Assembly: GCA_949288955.1 (NCBI GenBank)
Contig: CASEMS010000010.1
Span: 33,696 to 97,695 of the forward strand
From: an uncultured Lentisphaeraceae bacterium
GTDB taxonomy: Bacteria; Verrucomicrobiota; Kiritimatiellia; RFP12; DVOR01
Direction of reading: 5' to 3'
Length of the DNA: 64,000 bases
Below are positions 23,362-57,642 of this stretch, in pieces. Each line of letters starts with the position of its first letter. The stretch's first letter is position 1. The notes under the pieces were generated by a model that did not search any database, had not been told where the DNA came from, and worked only from the letters and a program-made list of their open reading frames with translations. The translations under genes were made by a program, and so were the position numbers.

Positions 23362-23450
23362 CAAAAAGGTACCTTTTTTCTCTGCCACCTCCCGCACCGC
23401 GTTTGCTATACTTATGCGTAGTTTGATGGCAGAGAAAAAAGGTACGTTTT
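23362..23450. promoter_or_regulatory. Mirror-symmetric divergent promoter/leader region: two inverted copies of TGGCAGAGAAAAAAGGTAC(C/G)TTTT flanking an extended -10 (TTGCTATACT, 23409-23420)
   Basis: The minus-strand copy is at 23362-23387 (which includes the KpnI-centred perfect palindrome AAAAAGGTACCTTTTT). The plus-strand copy is at 23425-23450. Each ends right at the ATG of its gene (acetyltransferase on the left, pyruvyl transferase on the right). Confidence 0.5.
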
Positions 23451-31793: not shown

Positions 31794-31885
<92 letters not shown>

Positions 31886-34781: not shown

Positions 34782-36131
34782 TCACTCCCTGCCCACCGCA
34801 AGGACACGAAAGCCCAGCCGTTGGAGGGCGCGGTGGTCAAGGAGATTGCGCGTGTCGAAAAGCAGCGCGGGCTTGCGCATGGAAGCGTGGATGCGCGCCC
34901 AGTCAAGGTCGCGGTAGCACGGCCATTCGGTCATAAGCAGGATGGCATCGGCACCTTCGGCGGCAACGTAAGGATCTGGCTCAAGGGTAACGTGCGGGAG
35001 ATGGGCAAGGTCACGCCGGGCGTTGGGGAGGGCCTTGGGGTCGGTGACGACGAGCTGGGCGTGCTCCTCGGCCAAGAGGTTGGCGACGGTGAGGGAAGGT
35101 GTCTCGCGGGTGTCGCCGGTGTTGGCCTTGAAGGCGAAACCGAAGAGCGCAATCCGCTTGCCGGCGAGGGTGTTGAAGAGGGCCTTGACGGTGCGGGCGA
35201 CGATTCGGCGCTGTTGCTCGGCGTTCATGCGAATGACGCCTTCCCAATAATCCGCCGCCGCATCGAGGCCATAGGAGCGGCAGAGATAGACGAGGTTCAG
35301 CACGTCCTTCTTGAAGCAGGAGCCGCCGAAGCCAGGGCCGGCTTGGAGGAACTTCGGGCCGATGCGGCGGTCGAGGCCGATGACGTGCGCCACCTCCGAG
35401 ATGTCCGCCCCGGTCGCCTCACAGAGGGAGGAGAGGGCGTTCACCGAGGAGATGCGCTGCGCCAGCATCGCGTTGGCCGCCAGCTTGGAGAGTTCGCTCG
35501 ACCAGACATTCGTGGTGATGATACGCCGCCGCGGCACCCACGCCGCGTAAATCTCCACCAACGCCCGCACCGCCGCCCGCCCCCGCGCCGTCTGCGGCCC
35601 GCCGATCAGCACGCGGTCCGGGTTCAGCAGATCGTTGATTGCCGAGCCCTCCGCCAGGAACTCCGGGTTCGAGAGCACCGTGAACGTGTGCTCCGGGTGC
35701 GTGTGCAACACCGCCGCCATCGCGTCCGCCGTCCGAACCGGAAGCGTCGACTTCTCCACCACGATCTTGTCGCCGTTCGCCTCCTGCGCGATCGTCCGCG
35801 CCGAAGACTCCCAGTATTGCAGATCCGAGGCGTAACCCGCCCCCTCGCCAAAGGTCTTCGTCGGTGTGTTCACCCCCACAAAGATGATGTCGCACGCCTT
35901 GATTGCCCCCGCGATGTCCGTCGAGAAGAAGAGATTCTTCCCGCGGCACGCCTTCACCATCTCGTCCAACCCCGGCTCATAGACTGGCAGACTGTCCGAG
36001 TTCCACGCCGCGATCCGCTCCGCGTTGATGTCCACCACCAACACCTTCCTATCCGGGTTCATCTTGGCGATCACCGCCATCGTCGGCCCGCCAATATACC
36101 CCGCCCCAATGCACGCAATGTCCCGCCTCAT
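34782..36131 (-). CDS. ugd: UDP-glucose 6-dehydrogenase
   Basis: MRRDIACIGAGYIGGPT (Rossmann) ... GFGGSCFKKD (catalytic Cys) ... GFAFKANTGDTRE; 449 aa of the long (eukaryote-like) type. High GC, native. Confidence 0.9.
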   Translation of the reverse strand: MRRDIACIGAGYIGGPTMAVIAKMNPDRKVLVVDINAERIAAWNSDSLPVYEPGLDEMVKACRGKNLFFSTDIAGAIKACDIIFVGVNTPTKTFGEGAGYASDLQYWESSARTIAQEANGDKIVVEKSTLPVRTADAMAAVLHTHPEHTFTVLSNPEFLAEGSAINDLLNPDRVLIGGPQTARGRAAVRALVEIYAAWVPRRRIITTNVWSSELSKLAANAMLAQRISSVNALSSLCEATGADISEVAHVIGLDRRIGPKFLQAGPGFGGSCFKKDVLNLVYLCRSYGLDAAADYWEGVIRMNAEQQRRIVARTVKALFNTLAGKRIALFGFAFKANTGDTRETPSLTVANLLAEEHAQLVVTDPKALPNARRDLAHLPHVTLEPDPYVAAEGADAILLMTEWPCYRDLDWARIHASMRKPALLFDTRNLLDHRALQRLGFRVLAVGRE

Positions 36132-36137
36132 AGCGAA

Positions 36138-37643
36138 TTATCGACTCCGACACATCTTAGAGTCCACAAAACACCTCTGAACCATCGCAGTCTCCGGCGG
36201 CATAGACCGCTGCCAGATTCTTGCCCAACGCTCCTTCCGTAACCTTGCCGCATCTAGTGCTAATCCCGTGAACACCAAAGCCCACATAATTCCGCCCATA
36301 CCTGTCATTGAAAACATTGAAAATTCACCAAGATTGGAAATCAAAATTACAAGCAAAACCGCACCCGTCGAAACTGCACCTTGAGATATGAATGAACAAA
36401 AGGCAATTATCAAGAATATAAGAAACAAAACGAAACCCAAGATCCCGCCTTCCTCAAGAATAGCAGTTATCCATACCCCTTTTTCAATCGGTGCGGACAA
36501 AAGATCCGTAATCGAGTTAATTTCTCGGTGTTCCATTCCCTTTGACACTTGGAATCCATTACCAATAACTGGACTCTCACTAAAGTTCTTCAAAGCCTCA
36601 TCCATCAATCCCTGACGCGTTTTAAGAAGTTCTTCCGAGGTAATTTCTAGTTTCGCATCCTTTGCTACATATTTCAGTGCAAATCTCGCAGTAGCCTCTC
36701 GTATCTGTGGACTAATCGAAAAAACAATACCCCCTAAAAGAAAAAGACCAAACAACACTGTCTGCACCTGTACCTTCCAAGTTGTTCGGGTCTGTTTGGA
36801 GAACGAGAAACACATCCCGACAAAACACATTCCTGCCACATAAGTTCCCATCGCAGTTCGGCTTGAAGAATAATAAATTAAAACAGGGATACCCAACAAT
36901 AATACAGAATAAACAATATCCCACCGTTTTAAGACAAATAATAAATCGGCGAAAAGGATAACGCTTGTTGCCGCCAAGAGTGGCCCGAGGGCTTGTGGAC
37001 TATTTGTAATTCCAGTAAACAAGCCCATCGCAGAAACAGGCAATCCCATTTCTATTGCTTGCTGTGCACCAACTTTTGCGATTCCAGGAAATGGGATTAG
37101 GCACAGCGATCCTACAACCCAAAATATAGCAATCGCCAAAACAATATTACGTAACTCTAAGGCCTCTTCCCCTCCCGCAATATAAACCTTTGAAACACTA
37201 AAAAACGCAATCAATGTAATAACAAAAAGGAAGAGTTTTAAATAACTTATCAACGGAGACCATCCCGCACACGAAACAACACCCATATAAACGCAATATC
37301 CGAATAATGTGAAAAATGGCGTCAGCAATGGACTACGTCGAACACTGAGAGCTTTTAAGCCCATAACGACACTCGCCAATAAATAAACAATTCGATTCGC
37401 AAATGAAAATACTACATCTTTCGGTGCGATAAATGAATTCGCAAAAGTCAAAACCCCTGTAAGTAACAGACAAAAGAATATACCCCGCATACTGTTCTTC
37501 ATCAATGCTCCAATGAGCACAAGAAGCAATACAGCAAAACCTGTCCCTCCCGTCGCTTTCATTATTCCGCACAATAAAATTATTGCGAAAAGATACCAAG
37601 CGACCTTTTTAGGTTGATACGCAGTGTTTACCATCTTCATCAT
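36138..37643 (-). CDS. Wzy-like O-antigen/EPS polymerase (O-antigen ligase superfamily, ~11 TM)
   Basis: A polytopic membrane protein with the large periplasmic loop typical of Wzy/WaaL. Low GC (~45%), so the compositional break falls right at the ugd boundary. Confidence 0.55.
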   Translation of the reverse strand: MMKMVNTAYQPKKVAWYLFAIILLCGIMKATGGTGFAVLLLVLIGALMKNSMRGIFFCLLLTGVLTFANSFIAPKDVVFSFANRIVYLLASVVMGLKALSVRRSPLLTPFFTLFGYCVYMGVVSCAGWSPLISYLKLFLFVITLIAFFSVSKVYIAGGEEALELRNIVLAIAIFWVVGSLCLIPFPGIAKVGAQQAIEMGLPVSAMGLFTGITNSPQALGPLLAATSVILFADLLFVLKRWDIVYSVLLLGIPVLIYYSSSRTAMGTYVAGMCFVGMCFSFSKQTRTTWKVQVQTVLFGLFLLGGIVFSISPQIREATARFALKYVAKDAKLEITSEELLKTRQGLMDEALKNFSESPVIGNGFQVSKGMEHREINSITDLLSAPIEKGVWITAILEEGGILGFVLFLIFLIIAFCSFISQGAVSTGAVLLVILISNLGEFSMFSMTGMGGIMWALVFTGLALDAARLRKERWARIWQRSMPPETAMVQRCFVDSKMCRSR

Positions 37644-38701
37644 AGATCCTCTTTTACCTTACACGGCATATATGACAGCCGCTTCTGCACATTAGAAAAA
37701 CAGTTGCGTATAAAACAAATAAAAGCAAAGAACAAACACATACTTCTAGGAAAACTCCATGCAAGACGAATAATCCAATAACTTTCCCAAATGTCTTTAT
37801 TGCCTACATAACGACCTATTAATTGACTTGAGCATATGCGATAAAGATCACGAATATTTTGAATCCGATTCTCTCCCATTGCTAACGGTGCCCGCATGGC
37901 ACTTAAAATCAGATTACGCGTATTTCTTATAATCCACATATTCCACATCATCTCTGAAGACATCACACCATAACGCATAACCATTTCTCGTCGAAATCGT
38001 ATAACTGATAGAAAGTCAACCATATTCTGCCGCTTGTAATTGCGTACAGACGACTGAGCATTAGGCAAATAGTGATACAACCCCTCATGCAGAAGCCCAA
38101 GACGCGTTACTTTTTCAAATAAGTAAAGATTCAATATCATATCATCGAACATCAAGACCGACATCTCTGCAAAACGAGAAAAGTCGTAAGTGTTTTTATA
38201 AAGTTTATCCCAAACAAAGACAGCTCCCTGCCCACAAAACAACCTTGGCCACACATATTCCTTAAAAACTTGTTCGCGTGTTAAAAAAAGTTCTGGCTCC
38301 ATGTATACGCCATGGCACGAATCGCATTGTACAATTTCCAATTTATTCTGAACCGCAAACGTATACAAACGTTCATACATGGTGGATTCAATGAAATCGT
38401 CTGCATCCACGAAACCAAACCAAGAAGAATGAATACGACGTAATCCCATTAAGCGAGCTAAATATCCTCGCTTATTACGTTGATGAAGAACATGTACCCT
38501 TGAGTCTGCCCGAGCTAACACATCAGCGATTTCTCCTGTTCCCTCATCAGAACCATCGTCCACAATCCAAATTTCTATAGCCGGATAAGTCTGACACAAA
38601 ATAGAATTAACCGAACGCGTTAAAAAATGCCCAACGCGATATGCAGGCACTATAACCGAAATTGTCTCTGCCTTTACCTTTTCTGCTCTACACAAACACA
38701 T
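37640..38701 (-). CDS. Glycosyltransferase family 2
   Basis: ISVIVPAYRVGHFLTRSVNSILCQTYPAIEIWIVDDGSDEGTG...FVDADD is the GT-A DxD-type N-terminus. Low GC. Confidence 0.75.
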   Translation of the reverse strand: MCLCRAEKVKAETISVIVPAYRVGHFLTRSVNSILCQTYPAIEIWIVDDGSDEGTGEIADVLARADSRVHVLHQRNKRGYLARLMGLRRIHSSWFGFVDADDFIESTMYERLYTFAVQNKLEIVQCDSCHGVYMEPELFLTREQVFKEYVWPRLFCGQGAVFVWDKLYKNTYDFSRFAEMSVLMFDDMILNLYLFEKVTRLGLLHEGLYHYLPNAQSSVRNYKRQNMVDFLSVIRFRREMVMRYGVMSSEMMWNMWIIRNTRNLILSAMRAPLAMGENRIQNIRDLYRICSSQLIGRYVGNKDIWESYWIIRLAWSFPRSMCLFFAFICFIRNCFSNVQKRLSYMPCKVKEDL

Positions 38702-38702
38702 T

Positions 38703-39800
38703 TCAAGCCTCTTCGATTTGCGCCATTAATACTTGTGCGATGGCACGCCAGGCATATCGGTTCAACGCCAAAGCCCGCCCGCGACGACCGAACTCATCCA
38801 ACTCCGAATCCGAAGCCATCAAAAAACGCCCCAAAGCCTCCGCCAACGCCTTCTCGTCCAACGCGAAGGTCTCGCCACACCCCTTCTCGTGCAGAACCGA
38901 CCAAGGCGTGGCCTCAGAGGCCAAGACCGGCAAACCAAAACCCAACGCGTCCGGGACTACGCCCCCGAAGTTCTCTGTGTAGGACGGCAGAACCAACAAC
39001 CGCGCCAGACGATAGGCCGCCTCCTTGTCCGCACCATACAGCGGCCCCGTGAATGTAACATCCGCCTCTGCGAAGTTTTCCAGCTGCGCCCTCTGCGTCA
39101 CCACCCCCACCTGCTGCGCCAAGCGCTCCAGTTCCCCCATATGCCCGGCCTGATCGGGGCCCACGCACACCACGTGCCAATCCCCGAGCGCATACGACTG
39201 CTTGAGGCGCGCCCACGCCCGAATCAGCAAATCCAACCCCTTCACGGGATAAATGCGCCCCACGAAGAGCACCACGTGCCGCCGCCCCGAAGAATCCGGC
39301 GCCTCCTGCGGTGCGACCGTCCCCAACGGCGCTTCCGCGATCCGATTGCGAAAACCCAGATCCCGAACCCACCGAGCCTCCTGCGCCGACGTCACGTGAA
39401 GCGTCGACACCCCCCGCAGCGCCCACCGCTGATACAACCACCACGGCGCCATCTTCTTCCACCGCTTATGCGCCATCGCCCACGGCGCCAACATCCCGTG
39501 CGGCGACCACACCGCCGGGACTTTATGCAGCTTGGCCCACAGGAAGGCCCGCATGAGCCACGGATCCCACAACGCGTGGATGTGCACCACCTCCGGACGC
39601 CACCCACCCGCCGTCACCCCGCCGATGCCCCCCACGAAAACGCGCACCCGATCACCGACGGGATAGAAATCCTCCCCCCGCCGCCTCACCAAAAGGCGGC
39701 AGTCATGCCCCATCCCAGCCAATTGGCGCAACACCTCCCCGCAAAAGACGGAGGTGCCAGCGGCCCTAGCCATCCCTGTAATCACATGCAAAATCCGCAT
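38703..39800 (-). CDS. Glycosyltransferase family 4 (GT-B)
   Basis: MRILHVITGMARAAGTSV... with the C-terminal ...LVLPSYTENFGGVVPDALGFGLPVLASE (the E-x7-E-like GT4 motif). High-GC segment inside the island. Confidence 0.75.
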   Translation of the reverse strand: MRILHVITGMARAAGTSVFCGEVLRQLAGMGHDCRLLVRRRGEDFYPVGDRVRVFVGGIGGVTAGGWRPEVVHIHALWDPWLMRAFLWAKLHKVPAVWSPHGMLAPWAMAHKRWKKMAPWWLYQRWALRGVSTLHVTSAQEARWVRDLGFRNRIAEAPLGTVAPQEAPDSSGRRHVVLFVGRIYPVKGLDLLIRAWARLKQSYALGDWHVVCVGPDQAGHMGELERLAQQVGVVTQRAQLENFAEADVTFTGPLYGADKEAAYRLARLLVLPSYTENFGGVVPDALGFGLPVLASEATPWSVLHEKGCGETFALDEKALAEALGRFLMASDSELDEFGRRGRALALNRYAWRAIAQVLMAQIEEA

Positions 39801-39883
39801 ACCCCACACTATAGCACATTTTGGTTCCTTTCATCCGAATCATTTGTTATACTCACGACAGTTACCAACGAAGGATTTACGTT

Positions 39884-40519
39884 ATGGCCCTTGCGAAACT
39901 GTTACTGACGATTACTTTATCCACGCTGGCACTCGTTTCCGCCCGAGCAGTCGCCATGCCTTGGACACTTACCAATTTCGACTATCTACAACAAGCCGAC
40001 GAATCGCAACAACCTAGCGAATCGCGCCCAATCTCTGGTGTACAGATTCCCTCTTTCAACCTTTCCCTCTCCGACCTCTCGACTTCGGGCGATATGCAAC
40101 TCGCCTCCCAAACGGTCGTCCTTGAAACGGTTCTTATCGCCATGCGATCAGCCGGGCCAGACAAATTCGTCCCGGAGCGACTCATCCTCGCCCAAAAAGA
40201 TGGCACGCGTATTGCTGCCGCGACTGCCACTCCCACCTCACAAACCGTCACGGTTTACACCAGCCCCACGACGACTACCACTTGCAACGTGTGGGCATAT
40301 ACCTTTAGCGGAAAATTGCCAACGATAAGTACCTCCATCGATTACGATCTCATTTTCGCCACTAGCGATTGGTCTATTTATGAGACCTCCAAGTTTCGCG
40401 ACGACCAAACTATTCTCGCTCGAAACATCGCTGACGAGCCAAACATTGAGAACGCCATCTGGGCCCCCTTCATCCTGACAAGCGGCACATATACACCCCC
40501 CCCCCAGTGGCGCACCTGA
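39884..40519 (+). pseudogene. PEP-CTERM-type secreted protein interrupted by a C10 homopolymer; the +1 frame continues to 40580 encoding PEPTALSLLALGVALTFLRRR
   Basis: A signal peptide MALAKLLLTITLSTLALVSARAVA leads a Thr/Ser-rich body of ~48% GC. The C-run at 40496-40505 is followed by TGA at 40517. With 9 C instead of 10 the ORF reads ...TPPPSGAPEPTALSLLALGVALTFLRRR* (stop 40578-40580), a textbook PEP-CTERM sorting signal. The tail DNA is ~70% GC. Confidence 0.6.
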
Positions 40520-40565
40520 GCCGACGGCCTTGTCCCTCCTCGCCTTGGGGGTGGCCCTCACCTTC

Positions 40566-40626
40566 CTCCGCCGCCGCTGATCCACTTGGATCAGCGGCTC
40601 GTCCGAGGTGGATCAGCCGCCGATCC
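40566..40626. repeat. 22-bp REP-like family, locus 6
   Basis: gctgatccacttggatcagcggctcgtccgaggtggatcagccgccgatccgac. Confidence 0.7.
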
Positions 40627-40646
40627 GACCCGAGCAAGCCGCCATC

Positions 40647-40684
40647 GCAAAAAAGGGCCCCCGACGCTTCCCGCGCCGGGGGCC
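40647..40684 (-). terminator. Rho-independent terminator for the acyltransferase gene (minus strand)
   Basis: On the minus strand, GGCCCCCGgcgcgggaagcgtCGGGGGCC is followed by cttttttg. Confidence 0.55.
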
Positions 40685-40710
40685 ACCTTTCATCATCCAA
40701 GCCTATCCGC

Positions 40711-41772
40711 TCACAGCGTCCCATCGAACACCCGCATCAGCCTCGGCGCGATCCTGCGCCCAACCCGATGTGCCAACACACAAAGCGCCGTGCCAAACAA
40801 GACAAAAATCAGGCATAGCATCGTCAGCACTCCTGTTACACGGGGCAACAATGGTGCCACCGTGTGAAGCAAGGTGGAGGCAAAAAGGAAGTGTCCGGCA
40901 TAGACGAAGAACGCTGATGGAGCCAACCATTCCTGAATCCACCGAGCCGTGAGCAACCGTGTCAGCGGCTTCGCCACCGTCCATAGAAGCGGGATTGTCA
41001 ATACCGTCAACGCCGTCGTCACCACTGGAGGAAGAGTGCCGACCATGGCTTTGACCAGAAACATCCCCACCATCGCGGCCACGGAAATCGGCAAGAAGAC
41101 CATTCGATGCCTCTGAAAGAAGGCTGGGGCGTCAAACGAGCGAGCCGCCATGCCCCCTCCCGTTATGAAGGCAATCGCCGCATACGCCGGATAGGTCATC
41201 TTCAACGCCTCCGCCTGACCAGGGAAAAGTGCCGTCGCACCAACCAGCGCCACACACAACATCGCCAAACCCCACGCCGGGACTTTCCTGAACACCCAGT
41301 CAAGCACCGGCGCGAAGAGTGCGAAGACAAACAAGGTGCGGACGAACCACAGAGGCCCATCGATTGGGTGGATGGTCAAAGAGACGATTTTGTCCAAACA
41401 GCCCGACCATGTGTCCAGCCCAAATTGCGCAACGCGCGTGGCCAAGCGTGGCACCACCGCAGCAAAAGCCAAGTAGACCACCACGAACAGTACATTCCAC
41501 GCCAAATAAGGGACTGCCAGGCGCCGGACACGCGACCAGATCTTCCGCCCATACTGCGCATTCGAATAGTTGCGAAAGAGCAGATAGCCAGACAGGAAGA
41601 ACAACGTCGGCAGAAGCACCGGAGCGAATCCACCACACAGGAAACTCCAAAACCAATATTCCGCGCCCTCATGGCGAACGTATTGGAAAGCCGCCGACGC
41701 ATGTAACAGCACGACGAGCAGATTGCAGAAAAGGCGAACCGAATCGATTTCGGCTGAACGTTTCGTAGTCAT
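40711..41772 (-). CDS. Acyltransferase family 3 (OafA/OatA-like polysaccharide O-acyltransferase), 10 TM
   Basis: EIDSVRLFCNLLVVLLHASAAF... is an integral membrane protein with the Acyl_transf_3 N-terminal signature (R/H in TM1). Confidence 0.65.
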   Translation of the reverse strand: MTTKRSAEIDSVRLFCNLLVVLLHASAAFQYVRHEGAEYWFWSFLCGGFAPVLLPTLFFLSGYLLFRNYSNAQYGRKIWSRVRRLAVPYLAWNVLFVVVYLAFAAVVPRLATRVAQFGLDTWSGCLDKIVSLTIHPIDGPLWFVRTLFVFALFAPVLDWVFRKVPAWGLAMLCVALVGATALFPGQAEALKMTYPAYAAIAFITGGGMAARSFDAPAFFQRHRMVFLPISVAAMVGMFLVKAMVGTLPPVVTTALTVLTIPLLWTVAKPLTRLLTARWIQEWLAPSAFFVYAGHFLFASTLLHTVAPLLPRVTGVLTMLCLIFVLFGTALCVLAHRVGRRIAPRLMRVFDGTL

Positions 41773-41773
41773 T

Positions 41774-43027
41774 TCACTCCTCATAATCGTTTTGCAGAAC
41801 CTCTATCTCCTGCACCAAACGCAACAAGGCCTCCGCCGCACACTCGGCCGTCCATTCGCCGATGGGGACGGACGGGATGGGCGCACGGAGTTTTTGGGCG
41901 AGGGTCTCGACGTCGCCGGCGCGGAAGAGGTTGCTCGGCGGCAGGAGCGTTGCGCCGGCGCCGGATTCCACCGTCGCCAAGACGCGCATACCCTCCTCCA
42001 AAGCCTCGCTCACCACCGCGCCCCACCCCTCGTAGCCGTTGCTGGGGAGCACGTAGACATCGTGCGCGCGCATGAGCTCGCGCACCTGCGCCACGGGCAC
42101 GAAGTTATGAAAGCGGATAGTGTCGCAGCCCTTGGCGAGTTTGCGCAGGTGCGTCTCCTCCGGGCCATGGCCATAGAGATCCAATAAAATCCCCTCGCGC
42201 TTCAAATCCGGGCGCGGGCGGCACGCCCGCGCCAAATCCCCCACGCGCTTCAAATCAAGCATCCGCCCGACCCAAAGCGCCGCGGGCGGATGCTTGATTG
42301 GAAGCGCGTGAGCCCCCCCCTCCCCCCCACGGGAGGCGCCCCGCCCCGGCGCCACGAAATAGCCCCACATCCGCAATTTCGCGAACACCCCCTTGGGGCG
42401 TACCCGCCCCCATCGCTCCCGCGGAATCTGCGCGAACCCATGTTGCTTGGCGAAAGCAACCGCCTCCGCGTCGAGCACCCCCTCCGCAATCGCCTGCCCC
42501 AACGGCACCACCACCCCACCCGGCCGCGACTCGAACACCACCTTCGGCGCGCGGAAAAAGCACCGCCAATCCCCCGCGAAAAGCCCCAACACCCGCGCCA
42601 TGTCCCGCGCCGCGTGCACCCCCATCGGCAGGCAGAGGAACCCCGGCGCGCGCACGCACCGCGCGAACCGCCGCGCCATCCGGAAGTATGAGGGCACCAA
42701 AAGCCGCAGGAACCCCAACGGCGGCTTAAACCACCGCTCCGCCGCATAGAACGTCGCCTTCCCCGCCGCGTTGCGCCGCTCGAAAAGCCCCAACGCTCGG
42801 AGCCCCGACAGCACACAATCCGCCTCGGCTAACGCCGCGTCCTCCATCGTCCCCTGCACGCACCACGTCGGCACCGCGTCCCCGCCCCACCCCATCCGCG
42901 TACGCTCCCCATGCGCCGCCTCCGTGTGGACATAGCGGTAATTCGCCTCCCCCACCCGCCGTACCAACGCCTTCGCCAACGGCACCTGATGCGGCGACAC
43001 CACATTCGTCAACAACGCAATCTTCAT
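41774..43027 (-). CDS. Glycosyltransferase family 4 (GT-B)
   Basis: MKIALLTNVVSPHQVPLAKAL... and the C-terminal ...VYVLPSNGYEGWGAVVSEALEEGMRVLAT. High GC. Confidence 0.7.
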   Translation of the reverse strand: MKIALLTNVVSPHQVPLAKALVRRVGEANYRYVHTEAAHGERTRMGWGGDAVPTWCVQGTMEDAALAEADCVLSGLRALGLFERRNAAGKATFYAAERWFKPPLGFLRLLVPSYFRMARRFARCVRAPGFLCLPMGVHAARDMARVLGLFAGDWRCFFRAPKVVFESRPGGVVVPLGQAIAEGVLDAEAVAFAKQHGFAQIPRERWGRVRPKGVFAKLRMWGYFVAPGRGASRGGEGGAHALPIKHPPAALWVGRMLDLKRVGDLARACRPRPDLKREGILLDLYGHGPEETHLRKLAKGCDTIRFHNFVPVAQVRELMRAHDVYVLPSNGYEGWGAVVSEALEEGMRVLATVESGAGATLLPPSNLFRAGDVETLAQKLRAPIPSVPIGEWTAECAAEALLRLVQEIEVLQNDYEE

Positions 43028-43111
43028 ACGAGCCCGCACCGTTCCTTTCCGCTTGACTTCGCACCAAGACTCGACAACTGTAGAATGTCAATAGATGTAA
43101 AACCGACTCCA

Positions 43112-43618
43112 TCAGCGATAACGCTTTCGTACCTCCGCAGGCACGCCTGCAAGTAAACAATACGACGTGGTAATTGACTTCGTAACAACCGCGCCCGCCG
43201 CCACCAATGTCTTCTCCGGCAACGACACGCCTGGCAAAATCACGCTACGCGCCCCTAACCAACACCCATCACCAATCGAGACCGAGGCAGAGGTTCCTTT
43301 GCCCCCAATATGTTCCCCTTCGACATCCACCGAATGGCTACCGGTGAACATCATAACTGATGGGCCCAAATCAACATGATTCCCAATGCGAATTTCCCCA
43401 CTCCCTGCGGCGGACAAATAACAACCAGGCCCAATCCACACATCATCGCCAATCGTTATTTCTCCTGTCCCATTGAAAATTACGGAAGCCGAAATCCGAA
43501 CGCCCTGCCCAATGGTTACCCCACACCAAGCCAATAACTTCGTTCGAAATCCAAAACAACGAGTCTCTGGCAACATCCTATTCAATAGATTATAAAAAAA
43601 CAACCGATTTGTTCTCAC
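43112..43618 (-). CDS. Hexapeptide-repeat (LbH) sugar O-acetyltransferase
   Basis: Multiple [LIV]GxxxxI hexapeptide repeats (ITIGDDVWIGPGCYLSAAGSGEIRIGNHVDLGPSVMM...). Low GC. Confidence 0.65.
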   Translation of the reverse strand: MRTNRLFFYNLLNRMLPETRCFGFRTKLLAWCGVTIGQGVRISASVIFNGTGEITIGDDVWIGPGCYLSAAGSGEIRIGNHVDLGPSVMMFTGSHSVDVEGEHIGGKGTSASVSIGDGCWLGARSVILPGVSLPEKTLVAAGAVVTKSITTSYCLLAGVPAEVRKRYR

Positions 43619-43632
43619 GTCGTCTCTTTCTC

Positions 43633-44589
43633 TTATTTCCCTATTACCTGAATGACATTCAAACGTTTCTCCTCTCCGGCAATTGGAATCAACTCATGCC
43701 CAGCGCCAACCTCTCCGACATATCGCCCCGGCACAGGAACTTTCTCTTTTGCCCCCATCTGTTTCCACATATATTCCACATCAACATGCCCTGCATCAAT
43801 TGCCCAAAAACCTGCTTTGCACAAATCATAGGCTAAAACCGTCGCTGTCGCCCCCAATGCCAACAAAATTAGTCGGCCCTGGGCATATTTCTTTGTTGTC
43901 TCCAATATTTCGTCATAAAATGTATAGGCGTTGAAAGGAGGGCACCAAAGACGCATAGTTGATTTCGCGCCATCAAATAAATCATTTCCAACACCAAGAC
44001 GTGAAAAACGCCCTTCAACGATGAGGAGATCGCGCCCTTTCACCAACTCTTTCCATAGGTCAAAAACAGTCCCATCAGTGACGCCACATGCAGGACACTC
44101 TTGAGATGGTCGTGAAATACAAGCATCCCCATAAATCGCATGAGAACAAAACAACGGCAAACATTTCTCCCCTGTTCTAAACAACGTGTCTCGCCAAAAA
44201 CGTCGAGCCTGCAAATTGAAATGATCCATTGACCCAAAAATATTAGGGATTGCGCAAAGGCCATCATTCACCGAATCCCCAATGATTTCACGCAATCGCT
44301 TCCCGAGCTCTAAGTTCACACATTGTGAACCCATTCGCTTCCCAAGCATCATTCTGAATTCCCCATCCCCATATCGCCAGATACTCTTTCGCTCATGGAT
44401 AATCTTCTGTAATGTATCTGCGATCCCCAACACATTCGGAGCATTATCCCGAAATTTCTGCCCAGTCTCGTAATAAAAATTACGCTCTAACAAATCCAAC
44501 TCATTACGGATTTGCTCTATCTTCTTCCATAAACAAATAGAACGCTTAATTCGTCCAAGAAGATGTCGAACTCTCCAATATAACGTCAT
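43633..44589 (-). CDS. Putative GT-D-fold glycosyltransferase (DUF1792-like)
   Basis: WRYGDGEFRMM... and the overall ~320-aa architecture resemble DUF1792/GT-D proteins from capsule loci; the assignment is from memory and tentative. Confidence 0.35.
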   Translation of the reverse strand: MTLYWRVRHLLGRIKRSICLWKKIEQIRNELDLLERNFYYETGQKFRDNAPNVLGIADTLQKIIHERKSIWRYGDGEFRMMLGKRMGSQCVNLELGKRLREIIGDSVNDGLCAIPNIFGSMDHFNLQARRFWRDTLFRTGEKCLPLFCSHAIYGDACISRPSQECPACGVTDGTVFDLWKELVKGRDLLIVEGRFSRLGVGNDLFDGAKSTMRLWCPPFNAYTFYDEILETTKKYAQGRLILLALGATATVLAYDLCKAGFWAIDAGHVDVEYMWKQMGAKEKVPVPGRYVGEVGAGHELIPIAGEEKRLNVIQVIGK

Positions 44590-44607
44590 AAACTACTCCT
44601 CTATATC

Positions 44608-45747
44608 TCAATTCGCATGTTTTAGCCGCATTGCCGCTTCATATCGCGAAACCACAGAATCAATTGTGTAAGGCTCCCAAGATTGTCGGGAGGGCACACT
44701 TGGATTGTTGATAATGTCTTGCATCGCTTCTGCAAGACAATGTGCATCCCCTAGCGGAACAAGTTTCCCCCAAAGTCCATTTTTGAGAATTTCTGGTGGT
44801 CCATAAGGACAATTGGTCGAAACGACAGGAATCCCGCTTGCCAAAGCCTCAACAAGCACGACGGAAAACGATTCTACCGTAGAAGAACAAACAAATCCGG
44901 TCGCCGCTTTAAGTTCTGCTGGCAAATTCTCATAGAATCCAGCTAATGAAACGACATCCGTTAATGCTTCTCGTGCAAGAAATGCTTTATACTCTCCCGG
45001 GACTTCCTCACGCCCAAAAATAATTAATTGGACACGTTGGGATTGATTGAGAATCTTGATTGCTTCAAAAAGAGTGAAAAAACCCTTACTCAAAACAAAC
45101 GCCCCCGCAGCAACAAACGTGGGACATTTCCGTTCTCTCAACCAAGGATGCGTAGGAAGCTTTTTCAGCTTCTCAAAGAAAAGATCGTCAACCACTGGAT
45201 TATATACGACAGAAATACGATTACGCGGGATATCCCCTATTTTTGCCATAGCATTGGCAACGCCCTTGCTAACAGCCATGAAATGCACATAAGGTGCCTG
45301 AAACAATTTCATTTTCACCCATTGCGCCGACCATCGTCGTGGAGGTTTGATAGACGTCTTCCCATCAAATTCGACATCGATTCCTCCGTTGTGTTCAACA
45401 TAATATATAGACGCACGAGAAAAGAAACTTATCATTCGCGCCAACGACAATGCATAAAAATAATTTGACGACATCGTCACGACCGCTCGGGCATCTGTTG
45501 TAGATAGATACTTAACAAGCGGAAAGACATTCATTCGTGCCGACCGATAAGGGAGACAAACCCAATGCACACCTTTTGGCACATCAAATGGTTTGCCTTG
45601 TTCACCGCTACGTAATAAATCCCAATGCACCTCAGAAACTACTAAATCCACGTCATATCCATGCGCCACAAAACCACGTGCCAACATAGCTGCCACATAT
45701 TGTGCGCCTCGCGCAAATAAATCTTGAATAAGAATGGCAATCTTCAT
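44608..45747 (-). CDS. Glycosyltransferase family 4 (GT-B)
   Basis: MKIAILIQDLFARGAQYVAAMLARGF... and the C-terminal ...FVCSSTVESFSVVLVEALASGIPVVST. Confidence 0.7.
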   Translation of the reverse strand: MKIAILIQDLFARGAQYVAAMLARGFVAHGYDVDLVVSEVHWDLLRSGEQGKPFDVPKGVHWVCLPYRSARMNVFPLVKYLSTTDARAVVTMSSNYFYALSLARMISFFSRASIYYVEHNGGIDVEFDGKTSIKPPRRWSAQWVKMKLFQAPYVHFMAVSKGVANAMAKIGDIPRNRISVVYNPVVDDLFFEKLKKLPTHPWLRERKCPTFVAAGAFVLSKGFFTLFEAIKILNQSQRVQLIIFGREEVPGEYKAFLAREALTDVVSLAGFYENLPAELKAATGFVCSSTVESFSVVLVEALASGIPVVSTNCPYGPPEILKNGLWGKLVPLGDAHCLAEAMQDIINNPSVPSRQSWEPYTIDSVVSRYEAAMRLKHAN

Positions 45748-46784
45748 AATCTTCTTCTTGTGAGCATTTGTTTCAAAGCCCCTATAGCAGATAAAGCATG
45801 ACAAAGAACCATGTCAAACGCAGGAATTCGCATCAATCGGACAAGCCACGCCCGAACACTCCATTTGGGAAGAGGCAAAGGCACGTCTCGCAGGAACATC
45901 CGCACCTCATGCCCAATAGCTCCGGCCCCACCGCGATAACAGGCATGCATAGTAACTTCCGTCACTAAGCAATGCACCAAAACCTCCCGAAGCCTCTGAA
46001 CATAAACCAGCCATCCAGACACACAAGACAAATAACGCTGATAAACAAGTCGGAAGGCCCTAAGTTGATCATGGAGTAATCGGATGCCCTGTCTTTTCGT
46101 CGCTTGCCCAGCATGAATCCGATAATAATATGCACACTGCCTTATCATCAACATACCATGTAGGCGCCCAGCCAAACCCGCGAAAAAGCACGTATCCTCG
46201 CACATTGAAATCCCAATGGGAAATCGAAGAGCCCCAACGGCATCCGCCCGTATTAGCCCACCCAAAATCATTCCACCGACAATCATTTCATCAATAAAGA
46301 AACGGATGGTTTCCATTTGTGTCAGATATAGCGGCTGTGCGCTTCCCTGATAATACCCTCCCCCCATCAAACAATAACCCCACTTGACGAACTCAATCGA
46401 CACGTTTTGGTTTTGCCTCAACATCTCATACACTTGACCAAGCGCCTGCTTGGCATAACAATCATCCCCGTCGAGAAAGCCGACCCATTGGCCGCGAAGG
46501 CAATCGAGTGCACGGTTACGGGCGGCAGAGACGCCGGCGTTGGGTTGATGGGTGATACGGAAGCGAGGATCGCGGCGGGCGTAGGCATCAAGGATAAGGT
46601 CGGAGCCGTCCTTGCTGCCGTCGTCGGTGCAGAGACATTCCCAGTCAGCAAAGGTCTGCGCTAAAACGGAATCGAGGCATTCGCCCAAATAGGGTATCAC
46701 GTTGTAGACAGGCACAATCACAGAGAAGAAGGGCAATTGCCGTTCTTTTTGGGTTGGCGTTACCGCTTGTGCCTGAGGTTTCAT
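45744..46784 (-). CDS. Glycosyltransferase family 2
   Basis: FSVIVPVYNVIPYLGECLDSVLAQTFADWECLCTDDGSKDGS...FLDGDD. Confidence 0.75.
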   Translation of the reverse strand: MKPQAQAVTPTQKERQLPFFSVIVPVYNVIPYLGECLDSVLAQTFADWECLCTDDGSKDGSDLILDAYARRDPRFRITHQPNAGVSAARNRALDCLRGQWVGFLDGDDCYAKQALGQVYEMLRQNQNVSIEFVKWGYCLMGGGYYQGSAQPLYLTQMETIRFFIDEMIVGGMILGGLIRADAVGALRFPIGISMCEDTCFFAGLAGRLHGMLMIRQCAYYYRIHAGQATKRQGIRLLHDQLRAFRLVYQRYLSCVSGWLVYVQRLREVLVHCLVTEVTMHACYRGGAGAIGHEVRMFLRDVPLPLPKWSVRAWLVRLMRIPAFDMVLCHALSAIGALKQMLTRRRL

Positions 46785-46826
46785 AACGCGCTTAGTGTAG
46801 CAAAAACGTAGCAATCACACTTTGCC

Positions 46827-48773
46827 TTATTCCGTCGTGTTCATCATTTCGTTCGGTTCTTCGTTCGTTTTCCTCGATGACAGAATAGTGTTGAACCGTT
46901 GAACAAGCGAAGTTCGAATTGTGTTTATCGTCGTCTCAACAAGCGCGATACGATTGGGTTGTTTCCACTGTCCCTTCTGATGATAGATCGCCACTCGATT
47001 TTGTTTCATTTTCTCAAGAATGGTCTTCCACGAATCCGCCTCTTGGATCAATTTCGGCAACCACTCCTGCCAATTCTGAACTCTTACGAAATACCGTTCT
47101 CGTACCATCTCTTGAAAAACAAGCGAGTCTTCCACTGATGCCTTTAAAAGTAAAGCCGCAAATTGCGCACAGGCATCGTCATCCAATAGAACTACCGGCC
47201 GATTGCGAATCTTCTCGCTCATTAAGAATTGGCACAGGCCTATCAGATTTTCCTTACACAGACAGTCGGTTATCTGTTCCTTGACTTTCGTTTCATACTG
47301 CTTTTGCGCAAGATTTTCAACAAGTTCTAGATTGTGTTGATACCAATCATCCTTCTCTTCCGAGATACTAAATCCAGCGAAACTGTCGTTCCACGTACCA
47401 TCTTCGGAGAAGACTAGTTGCTCCCTCACACTCGAAACATAATCTTCAAATCGCCTCGCCAAATGTTGCAAATGATCTTCCCACGCGGGAAGGAAATGCG
47501 CCAAAAGAGAGGGTCTTATCAACTTCAATGCGTCGTACCGCCGTTTATCGTATTTTCTTAAAAGTTCGAACACAAGCCTGATTTCCGCGGAGTCCGTAAT
47601 TTTGTGTTCCTGCAAAGCAATCAAGACTTTCCTCCGCGCCTTACGGGTTTCGCCATCATCCTTTGCCCACGCTCTAAACAACGGTTCCCAAGCGTAATCC
47701 TGACGATAGTAAACAGACTGTCGTAGTTCCTCGCGAATCGTTTCCGCATGGAAGCTACAACCATCAATCACTGTTGTCCACGACTCTGAACTCAGCAGCC
47801 AATTGAACGAAAGAAACGATCCAAACATCTCAAAGTCAAACTGCGTGCAAATGGAAAGCAAATCCCCCCAAGTAAACTTCTTGTCAGAAGAGGTGGCCTC
47901 CTTTCCATCTCCCCCAATTGGGGCTATGTTTTTCAATATTCCGAGTTGCGTCGAATACGCAAAGAGAAGAAAGAGGCATGTGAAATGAAGTTCCAAGTGT
48001 TCTGGTTGAAAGATTTCCGCCCCCAATGCGCTCTTCCACTGTTTCAATTGCCAAAGTGCCGCCTTAAACGCGCGATAATTGAAATGCTTCAGTTGATCGT
48101 AAATCTCATTCATGAGCAAAGTACTAAACGCCAACACACGTTTGTCTTCTTGAAAAGACAGAGCATTATCACCCATCAAAATAGGGATCACGTCTTCCGG
48201 TTCGCGAACCAAGGTGTAGGTCTTGCCTACAAACTTCTCTTTGAGCGATGTGTACTCCTGATCTACAAACAATTTCTCCTCATTGCCAATGTAGACCACA
48301 GGTTTTTGCGTCTGCTCGACAAACGCCTCCAAATAGCCCATTCGTTGGCGAAGTGGCAATTCACACCGCTCAAGGTCATCAAATACAACCGCTTGTTTAC
48401 GCGCTTTTCCCTGTTCGCGTTCCTTAAAAAAGGCGCTTATCCCACTCAACGCCCCCGTCAAGTCAGCCCCACATCCCTTGATTAATTCGGCAATCCCATT
48501 TCCCAAACGAAGTGCCTTGAACATCCATGTACGCGAGACATCGCCACAGAACGCCTCAACAATGCGTCGCTCAATTTCTTCAACAGACGCGACACCGTTC
48601 AATGAGATATACAGGACTTCTCCACCCTCTGCTTTTACTTGTTTGATAAGTTCCTTTATCAGATAGGTTTTTCCACATCCCCACGGGCCTGTCAGCAAGA
48701 CGGGAAAATCCGCAGAGGCTTCCATCATGTAAGTTTTTAACGCTTCTTTGACCGCTTGATTGCTTGCGTTCAT
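46827..48773 (-). CDS. KAP-family-like P-loop NTPase (648 aa), putative defence/abortive-infection component
   Basis: Walker A VLLTGPWGCGKTYL and Walker B AVVFDDLERC (the hhhhDDLER form typical of KAP NTPases), with a long alpha-helical C-terminal region. Low GC; it lies last in the ATPase-DUF4276-NTPase gene order. Confidence 0.45.
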   Translation of the reverse strand: MNASNQAVKEALKTYMMEASADFPVLLTGPWGCGKTYLIKELIKQVKAEGGEVLYISLNGVASVEEIERRIVEAFCGDVSRTWMFKALRLGNGIAELIKGCGADLTGALSGISAFFKEREQGKARKQAVVFDDLERCELPLRQRMGYLEAFVEQTQKPVVYIGNEEKLFVDQEYTSLKEKFVGKTYTLVREPEDVIPILMGDNALSFQEDKRVLAFSTLLMNEIYDQLKHFNYRAFKAALWQLKQWKSALGAEIFQPEHLELHFTCLFLLFAYSTQLGILKNIAPIGGDGKEATSSDKKFTWGDLLSICTQFDFEMFGSFLSFNWLLSSESWTTVIDGCSFHAETIREELRQSVYYRQDYAWEPLFRAWAKDDGETRKARRKVLIALQEHKITDSAEIRLVFELLRKYDKRRYDALKLIRPSLLAHFLPAWEDHLQHLARRFEDYVSSVREQLVFSEDGTWNDSFAGFSISEEKDDWYQHNLELVENLAQKQYETKVKEQITDCLCKENLIGLCQFLMSEKIRNRPVVLLDDDACAQFAALLLKASVEDSLVFQEMVRERYFVRVQNWQEWLPKLIQEADSWKTILEKMKQNRVAIYHQKGQWKQPNRIALVETTINTIRTSLVQRFNTILSSRKTNEEPNEMMNTTE

Positions 48774-48783
48774 TGCTTAATGA

Positions 48784-50636: not shown

Positions 50637-50797
50637 AACCAAAATCCTGTCATCCTCGCATAAACGTCGCCATCCCTCCGCGCACCTCACCCAATAAGGC
50701 ACTCCCGCGAGATTGCAACGCTCGTGTTCGATTCCTCGTACAATATCTTCATTATAGCAGAAATAGGCGTTTCGTTCCCTGCCCCTGCGCTGCGTGG

Positions 50798-50833
50798 GGA
50801 AGAAAAAAGAAAGGCCCCCGAGGAGTCGGGGGC
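50798..50833 (-). terminator. Rho-independent terminator of the giant gene (minus strand); also the right boundary of the low-GC island
   Basis: On the minus strand, GGCCCCCGACTCCTCGGGGGCC is followed by tttcttttttc. Confidence 0.7.
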
Positions 50834-50853
50834 CTTGGGTGGCGGGAGTGGGA

Positions 50854-57531: not shown

Positions 57532-57642
57532 CGTCGTTTCTCCTTTCGATAAGGTGGCACACCTTGTGCGACTCTGAAAGCAGTATAACATCCCCCACCA
57601 CCTATTGCAAGCGCCCCCGAAAAGGGCGCCCCCGCCGCCCCC

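What the first reader, a model, noticed from the sequence alone, without database searches (positions are those of the whole stretch)
39884..40580. PEP-CTERM protein split by a C10 homopolymer exactly at a GC-composition seam (candidate phase-variable or chimeric exosortase substrate)
The ORF at 39884 (signal peptide, Thr/Ser-rich, ~48% GC) stops at 40517-40519 just after a run of ten C (40496-40505). One fewer C would put the body in frame with ...PEPTALSLLALGVALTFLRRR* (to 40580), a near-consensus PEP-CTERM sorting signal (PEP, a 15-aa hydrophobic helix, RRR). The tail DNA is ~70% GC like the host, whereas the body is low GC. This suggests either slipped-strand phase variation of an exosortase-dependent surface protein inside an EPS locus, or a recombination scar where a foreign ORF displaced the body of a native PEP-CTERM gene. 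A sequencing error in the homopolymer is also possible.
Basis: seen in the sequence. Interest (0 to 1): 0.8.

Follow-up and report, generated by a model that had tools for sequence, protein, structure and literature searches.

The report
Frameshifted PEP-CTERM surface-protein gene
A small surface-protein gene in the sugar-coat gene cluster of an uncultured Kiritimatiellia bacterium has lost its cell-surface sorting tail to one extra C in a run of Cs; near-identical strains from other samples carry the intact nine-C version, so this is a one-off slip (or a read error), not a new mechanism.

Summary
ORF 39884-40519 (211 aa) stops five codons after a C10 run (40496-40505). Deleting one C gives a 231-aa protein ending PEPTALSLLALGVALTFLRRR, which passes TIGR02595 (17.8 bits, cutoff 16).

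The exact C9, in-frame protein exists in at least five other assemblies from the same study. One of them is identical to the window over 2.5 kb apart from the tract. More distant alleles have an interrupted tract (CCCTCCTCC or CCCTCCCCC). No C8, C11 or C12 versions, and no C10 on the two other allele backgrounds, were found by exact look-up.

The gene belongs to a small, unnamed PEP-CTERM family: signal peptide, beta-sandwich body, sorting tail. It sits in the same position in a Wzy-type polysaccharide locus in Kiritimatiellia relatives.

The GC step is real (0.53 to 0.75). It marks the 3' edge of a swappable body cassette, whose homology boundary is at about 40464, 32 nt upstream of the tract. 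It also reflects the GC-rich codons of the tail.

Best reading: a strain-specific +1 C slippage in a Pro-Pro-Pro linker that removes the sorting signal. A consensus error remains possible. Evolved phase variation has only weak support, and the recombination-scar reading is rejected. Exosortase presence and read-level tract heterogeneity could not be tested.

The parts
39810..39883 (.). AT-rich (36.5% GC) divergent intergenic region between the GT4 gene (38703-39809, minus strand) and the PEP-CTERM gene. It holds an AAGGA ribosome-binding site about 8 nt before the ATG.
   Evidence: The sigma-70 consensus scan found no promoter. The region is conserved at 95-99% in related loci, except L008, which carries a different 5' module.
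39884..40519 (+). The ORF as it stands: 211 aa with a signal peptide and a Thr/Ser-rich beta-sandwich body, ending ...TYTPPPQWRT*. It has no sorting signal.
   Evidence: It has no NCBIfam hit (protein 3). The exact 211-aa protein is on record only for this contig and its Logan twin.
39884..39981 (+). Conserved 5' module: signal peptide MALAKLLLTITLSTLALVSARAVA followed by the MPWTLTNFDY motif.
   Evidence: Seen in alignments A1 and A2. Identity to L007 is 89.8%, although L007's body is only 44.5% identical. L008, P0004 and P0008 carry an alternative signal-peptide module.
39982..40463 (+). Variable body cassette (52.6% GC), predicted to be a beta-sandwich or jelly-roll domain.
40464..40495 (+). 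Start of the conserved 3' module (PFILTSGTYT). This is the true homology seam.
   Evidence: The L007 blast HSP resumes at window 40464. Identity to L007 here is 96.9%. PFIL.SGTYTP is invariant in A1.
40496..40505 (+). C10 homopolymer. It is one base longer than the in-frame C9 (Pro-Pro-Pro) found in near-identical loci.
   Evidence: It is the only frameshifting coding indel between the window and L009-L013 or L003.
40506..40580 (+). Out-of-frame tail: linker SGA, PEP motif (40515-40523), 15-aa hydrophobic helix (40524-40568), RRR (40569-40577) and stop (40578-40580).
   Evidence: The PEP-CTERM DNA is 97-100% identical across all alleles. There is no start codon in this frame after the upstream stop, so the tail cannot be translated on its own.
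40573..40598 (+). Perfect 12-bp hairpin spanning the tail's stop codon. The 5' arm can also pair with an alternative partner at 40608-40620.
40656..40684 (-). GC-rich 12-bp hairpin followed by a T-run on the minus strand. It is an intrinsic-terminator-like site closing the convergent acyltransferase gene, and probably works in both directions.

Best explanation
The gene encodes a small exported surface protein with three parts: a Sec signal peptide, a beta-sandwich body of about 170 aa, and a PEP-CTERM sorting signal. It is a fixed, separately transcribed component of a Wzy-type polysaccharide locus in an uncultured Kiritimatiellia lineage.

In this lineage the signal-peptide end and the sorting-signal end are conserved DNA modules. 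The body between them is exchanged as a cassette, which produces the GC step near 40464-40500.

In one allele clade, T-to-C substitutions turned the linker CCCTCC(T/C)CC into an uninterrupted C9 encoding Pro-Pro-Pro. In the strain sampled here, that tract gained one C by slipped-strand mispairing. Translation then ends five codons later (PPPQWRT*), before the PEP motif. The product would still be exported by Sec, but it lacks the transmembrane and PEP signal that an exosortase recognises. It would therefore not be anchored or processed, which is a loss of function or an 'off' state.

The change could revert by a -1 slip. Nothing shows that the lineage uses it as a regulated switch.

Shown here: the frameshift, the intact C9 alleles, the mosaic structure and the family membership. 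Inferred: export, the exosortase dependence of anchoring, and the slippage mechanism.
For: - Tract and frames.
- TIGR02595 passes on the corrected protein.
- The exact C9 protein (P0009) is in the public collection, on contigs from ERZ16268233, ERZ16268097, ERR10610519, ERR10610620 and ERR10610483.
- L013 differs from the window over 2526 bp by the single C only. L010 differs by 9 mismatches plus that C over 7560 bp.
- The C-tract insertion is the only frameshifting coding indel across up to 19 kb of comparison.
- C10 is reproduced in an independent Logan assembly of run ERR10610617.
- A neighbouring C9 tract in the acyltransferase gene is assembled as exactly 9 in eight loci, so the platform does not systematically miscount 9-mers.
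- All 8 homologues, and 19 of 21 aligned family members, carry an in-frame PEP-CTERM.
- Synteny Wzy-GT4(-)|gene(+)|acyltransferase/GT4(-) is kept even at about 30% identity.
- The tract is interrupted in other alleles.
- The body cassette boundaries are mapped at about 39981 and 40464.
Against: - No reads were available, so a consensus error at a C9/C10 homopolymer is not excluded. The two assemblies probably rest on the same reads.
- C10 is seen in a single sample.
- No exosortase gene lies in the 64-kb window or in any fetched flank, so the sorting partner is assumed from what is known of the family (PMC1569441).
Kiritimatiellia is inferred from 87% AspRS identity to a named MAG.
- Export and loss of anchoring are inferred, not measured.
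Confidence: 0.55

Rival explanations
1. Sequencing or assembly artefact: the true sequence in this sample is C9 and the extra C is a homopolymer consensus error.
For: - Every other sample with this allele has C9.
- L013 is otherwise identical to the window.
- C10 in a GC-rich context is where short-read indel error is highest (general knowledge).
- The Logan and depositor assemblies probably share the same reads.
Against: - Two different assemblers give C10.
- There is no other frameshifting indel in 19 kb of comparison.
- C9 tracts elsewhere in the locus are assembled consistently as 9 across eight samples.
- The contig is 99.5 kb long, which argues against very low coverage.
Confidence: 0.22
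2. Evolved slipped-strand phase variation: the C tract is a contingency switch. It toggles the protein between an exosortase-anchored form (C9 or C12) and a released or non-functional form (C10 or C11) within populations.
For: - ON (C9) and OFF (C10) states occur on essentially the same haplotype.
- The tract became uninterrupted by T-to-C changes in one allele clade, and it is found on three allele backgrounds: P0009, P0019 and P0023.
- The gene is a surface protein in a hypervariable glycan locus, the classic setting for such switches.
- In the PVC relative Akkermansia muciniphila, C10 and G8 tracts in capsule genes have been proposed as phase-variable (PMC3048395).
Against: - Only about one in eleven consensus observations is off-length, and only C10 is seen. 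C8, C10 on other backgrounds, C11 and C12 versions are absent from about 15 billion proteins.
- The tract is not conserved in most alleles or in distant family members.
- Runs of 9 or more are not enriched over shuffles.
- A neighbouring C9 tract shows no length change in eight loci.
Confidence: 0.15
3. Recoding: the C10 allele is expressed as two isoforms. Full-length anchored protein would be made through +1 ribosomal frameshifting at CCC-C Pro codons (a stalling-prone PPP motif) or through transcriptional slippage on the C run.
For: - CCC-C is an established +1 slippery context for tRNA-Pro (PMC7577736 and related work).
- The shift needed here is +1, and it falls within a Pro-Pro-Pro run.
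Against: - Every homologue, including the same allele elsewhere, is in frame, so the frameshift site is not conserved.
- No stimulatory element was looked for or found.
- Such leakiness would be an accident, not a programme.
Confidence: 0.04
4. Recombination scar: a foreign low-GC ORF replaced the body of a native PEP-CTERM gene and left body and tail out of frame.
For: - The body is a discrete cassette with no DNA similarity between allele types, while its flanks are 92-100% identical.
- Body GC is 0.53 against 0.75 for the tail.
Against: - The homology seam is at about 40464, 32 nt before the tract, and the segment 40464-40495 is in frame with the body.
- The same body-tail junction is in frame in all relatives.
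- The identical allele with C9 is intact.
Confidence: 0.02

Closest known systems
PEP-CTERM / exosortase (EpsH/XrtA) substrates (Haft et al. 2006, PMC1569441; TIGR02595, PF07589), such as the floc-associated PepA proteins
   Same: - N-terminal signal peptide and a Thr/Ser-rich passenger with no Pfam match.
- PEP motif, 15-aa helix and RRR at the extreme C-terminus.
- Single-gene transcription unit.
- Location in an EPS or O-antigen-type locus of an outer-membrane-bearing PVC bacterium.
   Different: - In this window the sorting domain is out of frame.
- The body matches none of the named NCBIfam PEP-CTERM subfamilies; XDP1, THxN, PepA and the others hit the tail only.
- The exosortase partner has not been seen.
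- The upstream intergenic region is short (74 nt), whereas large ones are typical.
Homopolymeric-tract phase variation in capsule, LOS or O-antigen loci (Campylobacter, Neisseria, Haemophilus; proposed for Akkermansia muciniphila capsule genes with G8 and C10 tracts, PMC3048395)
   Same: - A poly-C run inside the reading frame of a surface-structure gene.
- In-frame and out-of-frame lengths both occur on the same haplotype.
   Different: - The tract is not conserved among alleles.
- Only one off-length instance is known.
- The tract sits at the 3' end and removes only the sorting signal, not the whole protein.
- There is no read-level evidence of heterogeneity.
Truncation of sortase-type surface proteins before their anchor, such as Listeria monocytogenes inlA premature stops and poly-A frameshifts that give secreted InlA (from my own knowledge, not checked here)
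   Same: A frameshift or stop upstream of a C-terminal sorting signal turns an anchored surface protein into an unanchored one. Some cases arise in homopolymers.
   Different: - The sorting system is different: LPXTG and sortase in Gram-positives, against PEP-CTERM and exosortase here.
- The phenotype here is unknown.
Conserved-ends, variable-centre surface genes and cassette-type glycan loci (flagellin and pilin central domains; O-antigen clusters flanked by conserved genes)
   Same: Near-identical 5' and 3' modules flank a body with no DNA similarity between allele types. This lies within a patchwork polysaccharide locus.
   Different: - The exchanged unit is a 480-bp internal segment of a PEP-CTERM gene.
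- It swaps independently of the surrounding glycosyltransferase set: L002 and L007 have the same locus architecture but different bodies.

Membership tests
PEP-CTERM sorting-domain proteins (TIGR02595 / PF07589) | Pro-Glu-Pro motif, then a hydrophobic helix, then a basic cluster, all at the extreme C-terminus | tested here: met
   Met only after removing one C: PEP (40515-23), TALSLLALGVALTFL, RRR, then stop. The ORF as it stands lacks this feature (protein 3).
PEP-CTERM sorting-domain proteins (TIGR02595 / PF07589) | HMM score at or above the curated cutoff | tested here: met
   TIGR02595 scores 17.8 bits against a cutoff of 16 on the corrected protein, and 23.3 on the tail alone. PF07589 scores 16.5 against a cutoff of 20.7 on the whole protein, and 22.1 on the tail alone. 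19 of 21 family members hit TIGR02595.
PEP-CTERM sorting-domain proteins (TIGR02595 / PF07589) | N-terminal signal peptide, with no other transmembrane segment before the sorting domain | tested here: inconclusive
   By inspection, MALAKLLLTITLSTLALVSARAVA has a basic residue, a hydrophobic core and an AxA site. The AF2 model has helix 2-19 followed by an all-beta body. No signal-peptide predictor was available.
PEP-CTERM sorting-domain proteins (TIGR02595 / PF07589) | An exosortase (EpsH/Xrt) encoded in the same genome | not testable with these tools
   No exosortase was found among the window's ORFs or among the called genes of the fetched loci.
PEP-CTERM sorting-domain proteins (TIGR02595 / PF07589) | Association with exopolysaccharide biosynthesis genes | tested here: met
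   The gene is flanked by UDP-glucose dehydrogenase, a Wzy-like polymerase, GT2, GT4 and GT-D glycosyltransferases, and acyl- and acetyltransferases. The synteny recurs in relatives.
Simple-sequence-repeat phase-variable (contingency) genes | An in-frame repeat tract whose length changes switch the reading frame | tested here: met
   C9 and C12 are in frame. C10 gives a 211-aa truncation, and C8 or C11 give read-through of about 310 aa.
Simple-sequence-repeat phase-variable (contingency) genes | Tract-length polymorphism among otherwise near-identical strains | tested here: inconclusive
   C9 occurs in about ten contigs and C10 in one sample. No C8, C11 or C12, and no C10 on other backgrounds, were found by exact look-up.
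Simple-sequence-repeat phase-variable (contingency) genes | Tract conserved across alleles or relatives, or long tracts over-represented in the genome | tested here: not met
   Most alleles have CCCTCCTCC or CCCTCCCCC. Distant members have other linkers. Runs of 9 or more number 2 against 4.35 expected.
Simple-sequence-repeat phase-variable (contingency) genes | Within-population length heterogeneity above sequencing stutter | not testable with these tools
   Raw reads of ERR10610617 cannot be accessed.
Programmed +1 ribosomal frameshift genes | Frameshift site and two-frame architecture conserved in homologues | tested here: not met
   All homologues are single in-frame ORFs of 225-240 aa.

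The most novel reading that the evidence does not exclude
The C tract is a sorting-signal switch. It sits exactly between passenger and PEP-CTERM anchor, so slippage (possibly with leaky +1 decoding at CCC-C) toggles a glycan-locus surface protein between an exosortase-anchored form and a released form without abolishing the protein. The tract was 'purified' from CCCTCCTCC to C9 in one allele clade under selection for mutability. This would be the first simple-repeat phase variation described for an exosortase substrate and for Kiritimatiellota.
Probability: 0.12. Interest if true: 0.55.

Novelty: new member of a known kind. Interest (0 to 1): 0.27.

Why it matters
On its own this is an ordinary event: a homopolymer frameshift in one strain of a gene that is intact in its relatives.

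Three things give it modest value:
- It documents a previously unnamed PEP-CTERM protein family that is a fixed, separately transcribed part of a hypervariable polysaccharide locus in uncultured Kiritimatiellia.
- The body of that protein is exchanged as a cassette between invariant signal-peptide and sorting-signal modules, independently of the surrounding glycosyltransferases. This points to diversifying selection on the protein itself, for example from phage, predator or host recognition.
- It provides a natural pair of alleles, with and without the sorting signal. If a relative is ever cultured, that pair could test what exosortase anchoring contributes.

For annotation, the lesson is that the 211-aa call should be flagged as a frameshifted PEP-CTERM gene, not treated as a separate hypothetical protein.

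Tried and rejected
- GTDB genome scans found nothing, either with the family alignment or with a degenerate back-translation of the tail LSLLALGVALTFLRRR. The species could not be named that way and its genome could not be searched for an exosortase.
- A JGI metagenome scan for the junction sequence found nothing.
- Full-text searches for the run and assembly accessions, and for PEP-CTERM or exosortase together with Kiritimatiell*, gave nothing useful.
- The sigma-70 promoter scan found nothing upstream, and by eye no sigma-54 -24/-12 element fits.
- Rfam found only a tRNA.
- Exact look-ups of window housekeeping proteins returned no organism names. The taxon rests on AspRS similarity.
- I considered that the linker alleles (PSSGGV versus PPPSGA) might differ by compensated frameshifts. 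I rejected this because they align without gaps as five substitutions.
- I considered the 140-aa 'uncultured Megasphaera' proteins that share the 90% cluster as a possible donor of the low-GC body. I rejected this because they are unrelated in sequence; the shared cluster is an artefact.

Full report
**1. Checking the observation**

The sequence is as described.
- An ATG at 39884, preceded by AAGGA, opens a reading frame that ends at TGA 40517-40519 (211 aa).
- A run of exactly ten C occupies 40496-40505. It is the longest homopolymer in the 64-kb window; all others are 9 or shorter.
- With nine C (or twelve), the frame continues into ...TYTPPPSGAPEPTALSLLALGVALTFLRRR*, with the stop at 40578-40580.
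- The corrected 231-aa protein hits TIGR02595 (PEP_CTERM) at 17.8 bits against a curated cutoff of 16. The tail alone scores 23.3. The ORF as it stands hits nothing.
- Pfam PF07589 gives 16.5 bits for the whole protein (below 20.7) and 22.1 for the tail alone.

- The body is 52.6% GC, not about 48%. The segment 40496-40580 is 75%.
- GC climbs gradually across about 40450-40510.

A C/G run of 9 or more is not surprising in this composition. Two overlapping matches were found against 4.35 expected in dinucleotide shuffles. The tract therefore matters because of where it lies, not because it exists.

**2. Genomic context and organism**

The window is chromosomal DNA of about 70% GC. It carries housekeeping genes: TsaD, RsmI, PdxJ, Tgt, MazG, GuaA, Nth and AspRS.

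A mosaic lower-GC island at about 36,000-51,000 interrupts it. This island is a Wzy-type polysaccharide locus, and every gene in it is on the minus strand except the gene under study:
- UDP-glucose dehydrogenase, 34782-36131
- Wzy-like polymerase, 36138-37643
- GT2, 37640-38701
- GT4, 38703-39809
- the gene under study (plus strand)
- Acyl_transf_3, 40711-41784
- GT4, 41774-43039
- hexapeptide acetyltransferase, then GT-D, GT4 and GT2

The gene is thus a single-gene transcription unit. It diverges from the GT4 gene across a 74-nt AT-rich spacer. It converges on the acyltransferase gene across two GC-rich hairpins, at 40573-40598 and 40656-40684. The second hairpin is followed by a T-run on the minus strand.

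No exosortase is encoded in the window.

The best named relative of the window's AspRS is a 'MAG: Kiritimatiellia bacterium' at 87% identity. Many further Kiritimatiellia/Kiritimatiellae hits lie at 72-75%. The lineage was not found in the GTDB representative scans or in JGI metagenomes.

**3. The gene is normally intact**

A search of 5.8 billion clustered proteins with the corrected sequence returned eight relatives. Each is a single ORF that ends in the same sorting tail. Seven are 226-233 aa; one (P0005, 180 aa) lacks part of the body.

A profile search of 1.84 billion cluster representatives found only 25 proteins at E of 1e-3 or better. An alignment of 21 members shows one architecture throughout: signal peptide, a body of about 170 aa, an SGTY-like motif, a short linker and a PEP-CTERM domain. 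Nineteen of the 21 hit TIGR02595. Other NCBIfam models (XDP1, THxN, PepA and others) match only weakly, and for the window protein the XDP1 match covers the tail alone. Pfam and NCBIfam find nothing in the window protein's body.

The genomic position Wzy-GT4(-)|gene(+)|acyltransferase/GT4(-) is kept in all close relatives. It is also kept in members only about 30% identical, including one from an unrelated study, SRR7457741. One member, P0218, lies elsewhere.

**4. What the tract looks like in relatives**

Exact-sequence look-up shows that the C9 in-frame protein (P0009) really exists in public assemblies. Its contigs come from five other samples of the same study: ERZ16268233, ERZ16268097, ERR10610519, ERR10610620 and ERR10610483.

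All five read ACA-CCCCCCCCC-AGTGGCGCA. Their similarity to the window is as follows:

| Locus | Length compared | Difference from the window |
|---|---|---|
| L013 | 2526 bp | 0 mismatches, 1 gap (the extra C) |
| L010 | 7560 bp | 9 mismatches plus that gap |
| L009 | 19 kb | 99.45% identical |

Across these comparisons, the C-tract insertion is the only frameshifting indel in coding sequence. The other indels are intergenic or multiples of three.

Two further allele backgrounds also carry C9: P0019 on three contigs and P0023 on one.

More distant alleles have an interrupted tract: CCCTCCTCC-GGCGGCGTA (Pro-Ser-Ser-Gly-Gly-Val) or CCCTCCCCC-GGTGGTGCA. The uninterrupted run therefore arose by T-to-C substitutions in one clade.

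Exact look-ups found none of the C8, C11 and C12 versions on the three backgrounds. They also found no C10 versions on the other two backgrounds.

The window's own C10 is reproduced in a Logan assembly of run ERR10610617, which is 100% identical over 36093-40623.

A second tract in the acyltransferase gene next door reads C9 on the plus strand. It is assembled as exactly nine in eight loci, and as CCCCCTCCC in the window, L010 and L013. Nine-mers are therefore not systematically miscounted in this data set.

**5. The composition seam**

The seam reflects a real mosaic, but it is not the cause of the split.
- L002 and L007 are collinear at 97.5% and 92.2% identity on either side of a 480-bp segment with no blastn similarity. 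That segment is the gene body.
- Against the window, L007 is 89.8% identical in the 5' module (39884-39981), 44.5% in the body, 96.9% in 40464-40495 and 100% in the PEP-CTERM DNA. The identity of the PEP-CTERM DNA extends to synonymous sites.
- L008 has the window's body type but a different signal-peptide module and upstream spacer.

So the 5' module, the body and the 3' module reassort. The 3' homology boundary is at about 40464, 32 nt upstream of the tract, and the stretch between them (PFILTSGTYT) is in frame with the body.

The GC step has three sources: this boundary, the GC-rich codons of a Pro/Ala/Gly/Leu/Arg tail, and the C run itself.

Body type is not tied to the surrounding glycosyltransferase set. 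L002 and L007 share the same locus architecture.

**6. Interpretation**

The most economical reading is a recent +1 slippage in a C9 Pro-Pro-Pro linker tract in the strain of one sample. It truncates the protein just before its sorting signal.

By the accepted model for PEP-CTERM proteins (Haft et al. 2006, PMC1569441), the signal peptide takes the protein across the inner membrane. The C-terminal helix and PEP motif then present it to the exosortase. A product ending PPPQWRT would be exported but neither retained nor processed. These functional consequences are inferred.

A consensus error is the main rival. Two points favour it:
- C10 is seen in only one sample.
- The two assemblies probably share the same reads.

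Three points count against it:
- Two different assemblers agree.
- The assembly is otherwise clean.
- The control tracts are stable.

Evolved phase variation is possible. ON and OFF lengths occur on one haplotype, in a surface protein of a glycan locus. There is also a precedent proposal for C10 and G8 tracts in Akkermansia capsule genes (PMC3048395). However, the tract is not conserved, only one off-length instance exists, and long runs are not enriched.

Leaky +1 decoding at CCC-C (PMC7577736) could give some full-length protein. It would be incidental, since no homologue is built that way.

The recombination-scar idea is contradicted by the intact C9 allele.

**7. Comparison with known systems and verdict**

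This is a frameshifted member of a new, narrowly distributed subfamily of a well-known class, the PEP-CTERM/exosortase substrates. It was altered by a well-known mutational mechanism, homopolymer slippage.

The cassette-like body exchange between invariant targeting modules is the most interesting by-product of the analysis, but it is also a familiar pattern for surface proteins.

Interest is low to moderate. The decisive test is a read pile-up at the tract, with control tracts for comparison.

Noticed in passing
window 41152-41160 (within Acyl_transf_3 gene 40711-41784, minus strand): Eight related loci have an uninterrupted C9 here (G9 on the coding strand, Gly-Gly-Gly). The window, L010 and L013 have CCCCCTCCC. 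The length is always 9 and the gene is always in frame. This makes a useful control tract for read-level stutter.
   Followed up: partly
window 40496-40514: The 6-codon linker between SGTYT and PEP is a small divergence hotspot. It is 67-83% identical between alleles whose flanks are at least 97% identical. Variants seen are PSSGGV, PSPGGA, PSPGGV, PSSDGV, PPPSGA and PPPSGV. All differences are substitutions, not indels.
   Followed up: partly
window 39764-39981 versus L008 9880-10100: An alternative 5' module (signal peptide MRTITFSLAFGLAALILGPLHA plus a different upstream spacer) is combined with either body type in P0004 and P0008. The signal-peptide end therefore reassorts independently of the body.
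   Followed up: partly
window 46827-50702 (minus strand): Candidate anti-phage genes sit at the edge of the glycan locus. A KAP-type NTPase matches PADLOC PDC-S49 (E = 9e-67). Next to it is a DUF3226 protein plus an AAA_21 ATPase pair that matches AbiLi and PDC-M38A/B. Relatives carry different versions at this position.
   Followed up: partly
window 36093 and 40623 (ends of Logan contig L001): The independent Logan contig from ERR10610617 starts 39 nt inside the UGDH gene's 5' end, near the UGDH/Wzy boundary where the low-GC island begins, and ends in the hairpin region just after the PEP-CTERM stop. This could reflect assembly-graph branching where co-existing strains converge on shared modules. 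It is not tested.
   Followed up: no
window 50854-57690 (minus strand): A giant 2278-aa ORF at host GC (GC3 0.91). Its only Pfam matches are F5/8 type C (discoidin-type) domain families around residues 1654-1735 (PF00754, plus a weaker PF22633 hit on the same stretch). It is otherwise unannotated.
   Followed up: no
window 22804-26348: A second group of polysaccharide-modification genes lies at host GC, about 10 kb from the main locus. It holds two WcaF-like acetyltransferases, a polysaccharide pyruvyl transferase and an FrhB/ferredoxin-like protein. The pyruvyl-transferase/FrhB pair appears inside the variable locus in relatives.
   Followed up: no
window 40074 (body of the gene): The 233-aa alleles (P0002, P0016, P0019) carry an in-frame 6-bp insertion, CTCCGC, which adds Ser-Ala. 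It appears to duplicate the neighbouring CTCCGA.
   Followed up: no
protein cluster of P0002: The 90%-identity cluster that holds this protein also lists unrelated 140-aa 'uncultured Megasphaera' proteins. They share only the string DSYQRRIY with the TTG-extended upstream ORF of the window (39821-). This is a clustering artefact, not homology.
   Followed up: yes
window 31794-31885 (+): A tRNA-Ser (GCT) lies about 3 kb to the left of the polysaccharide locus, just before two genes conserved in relatives: an unannotated ORF and a PPIase.
   Followed up: no
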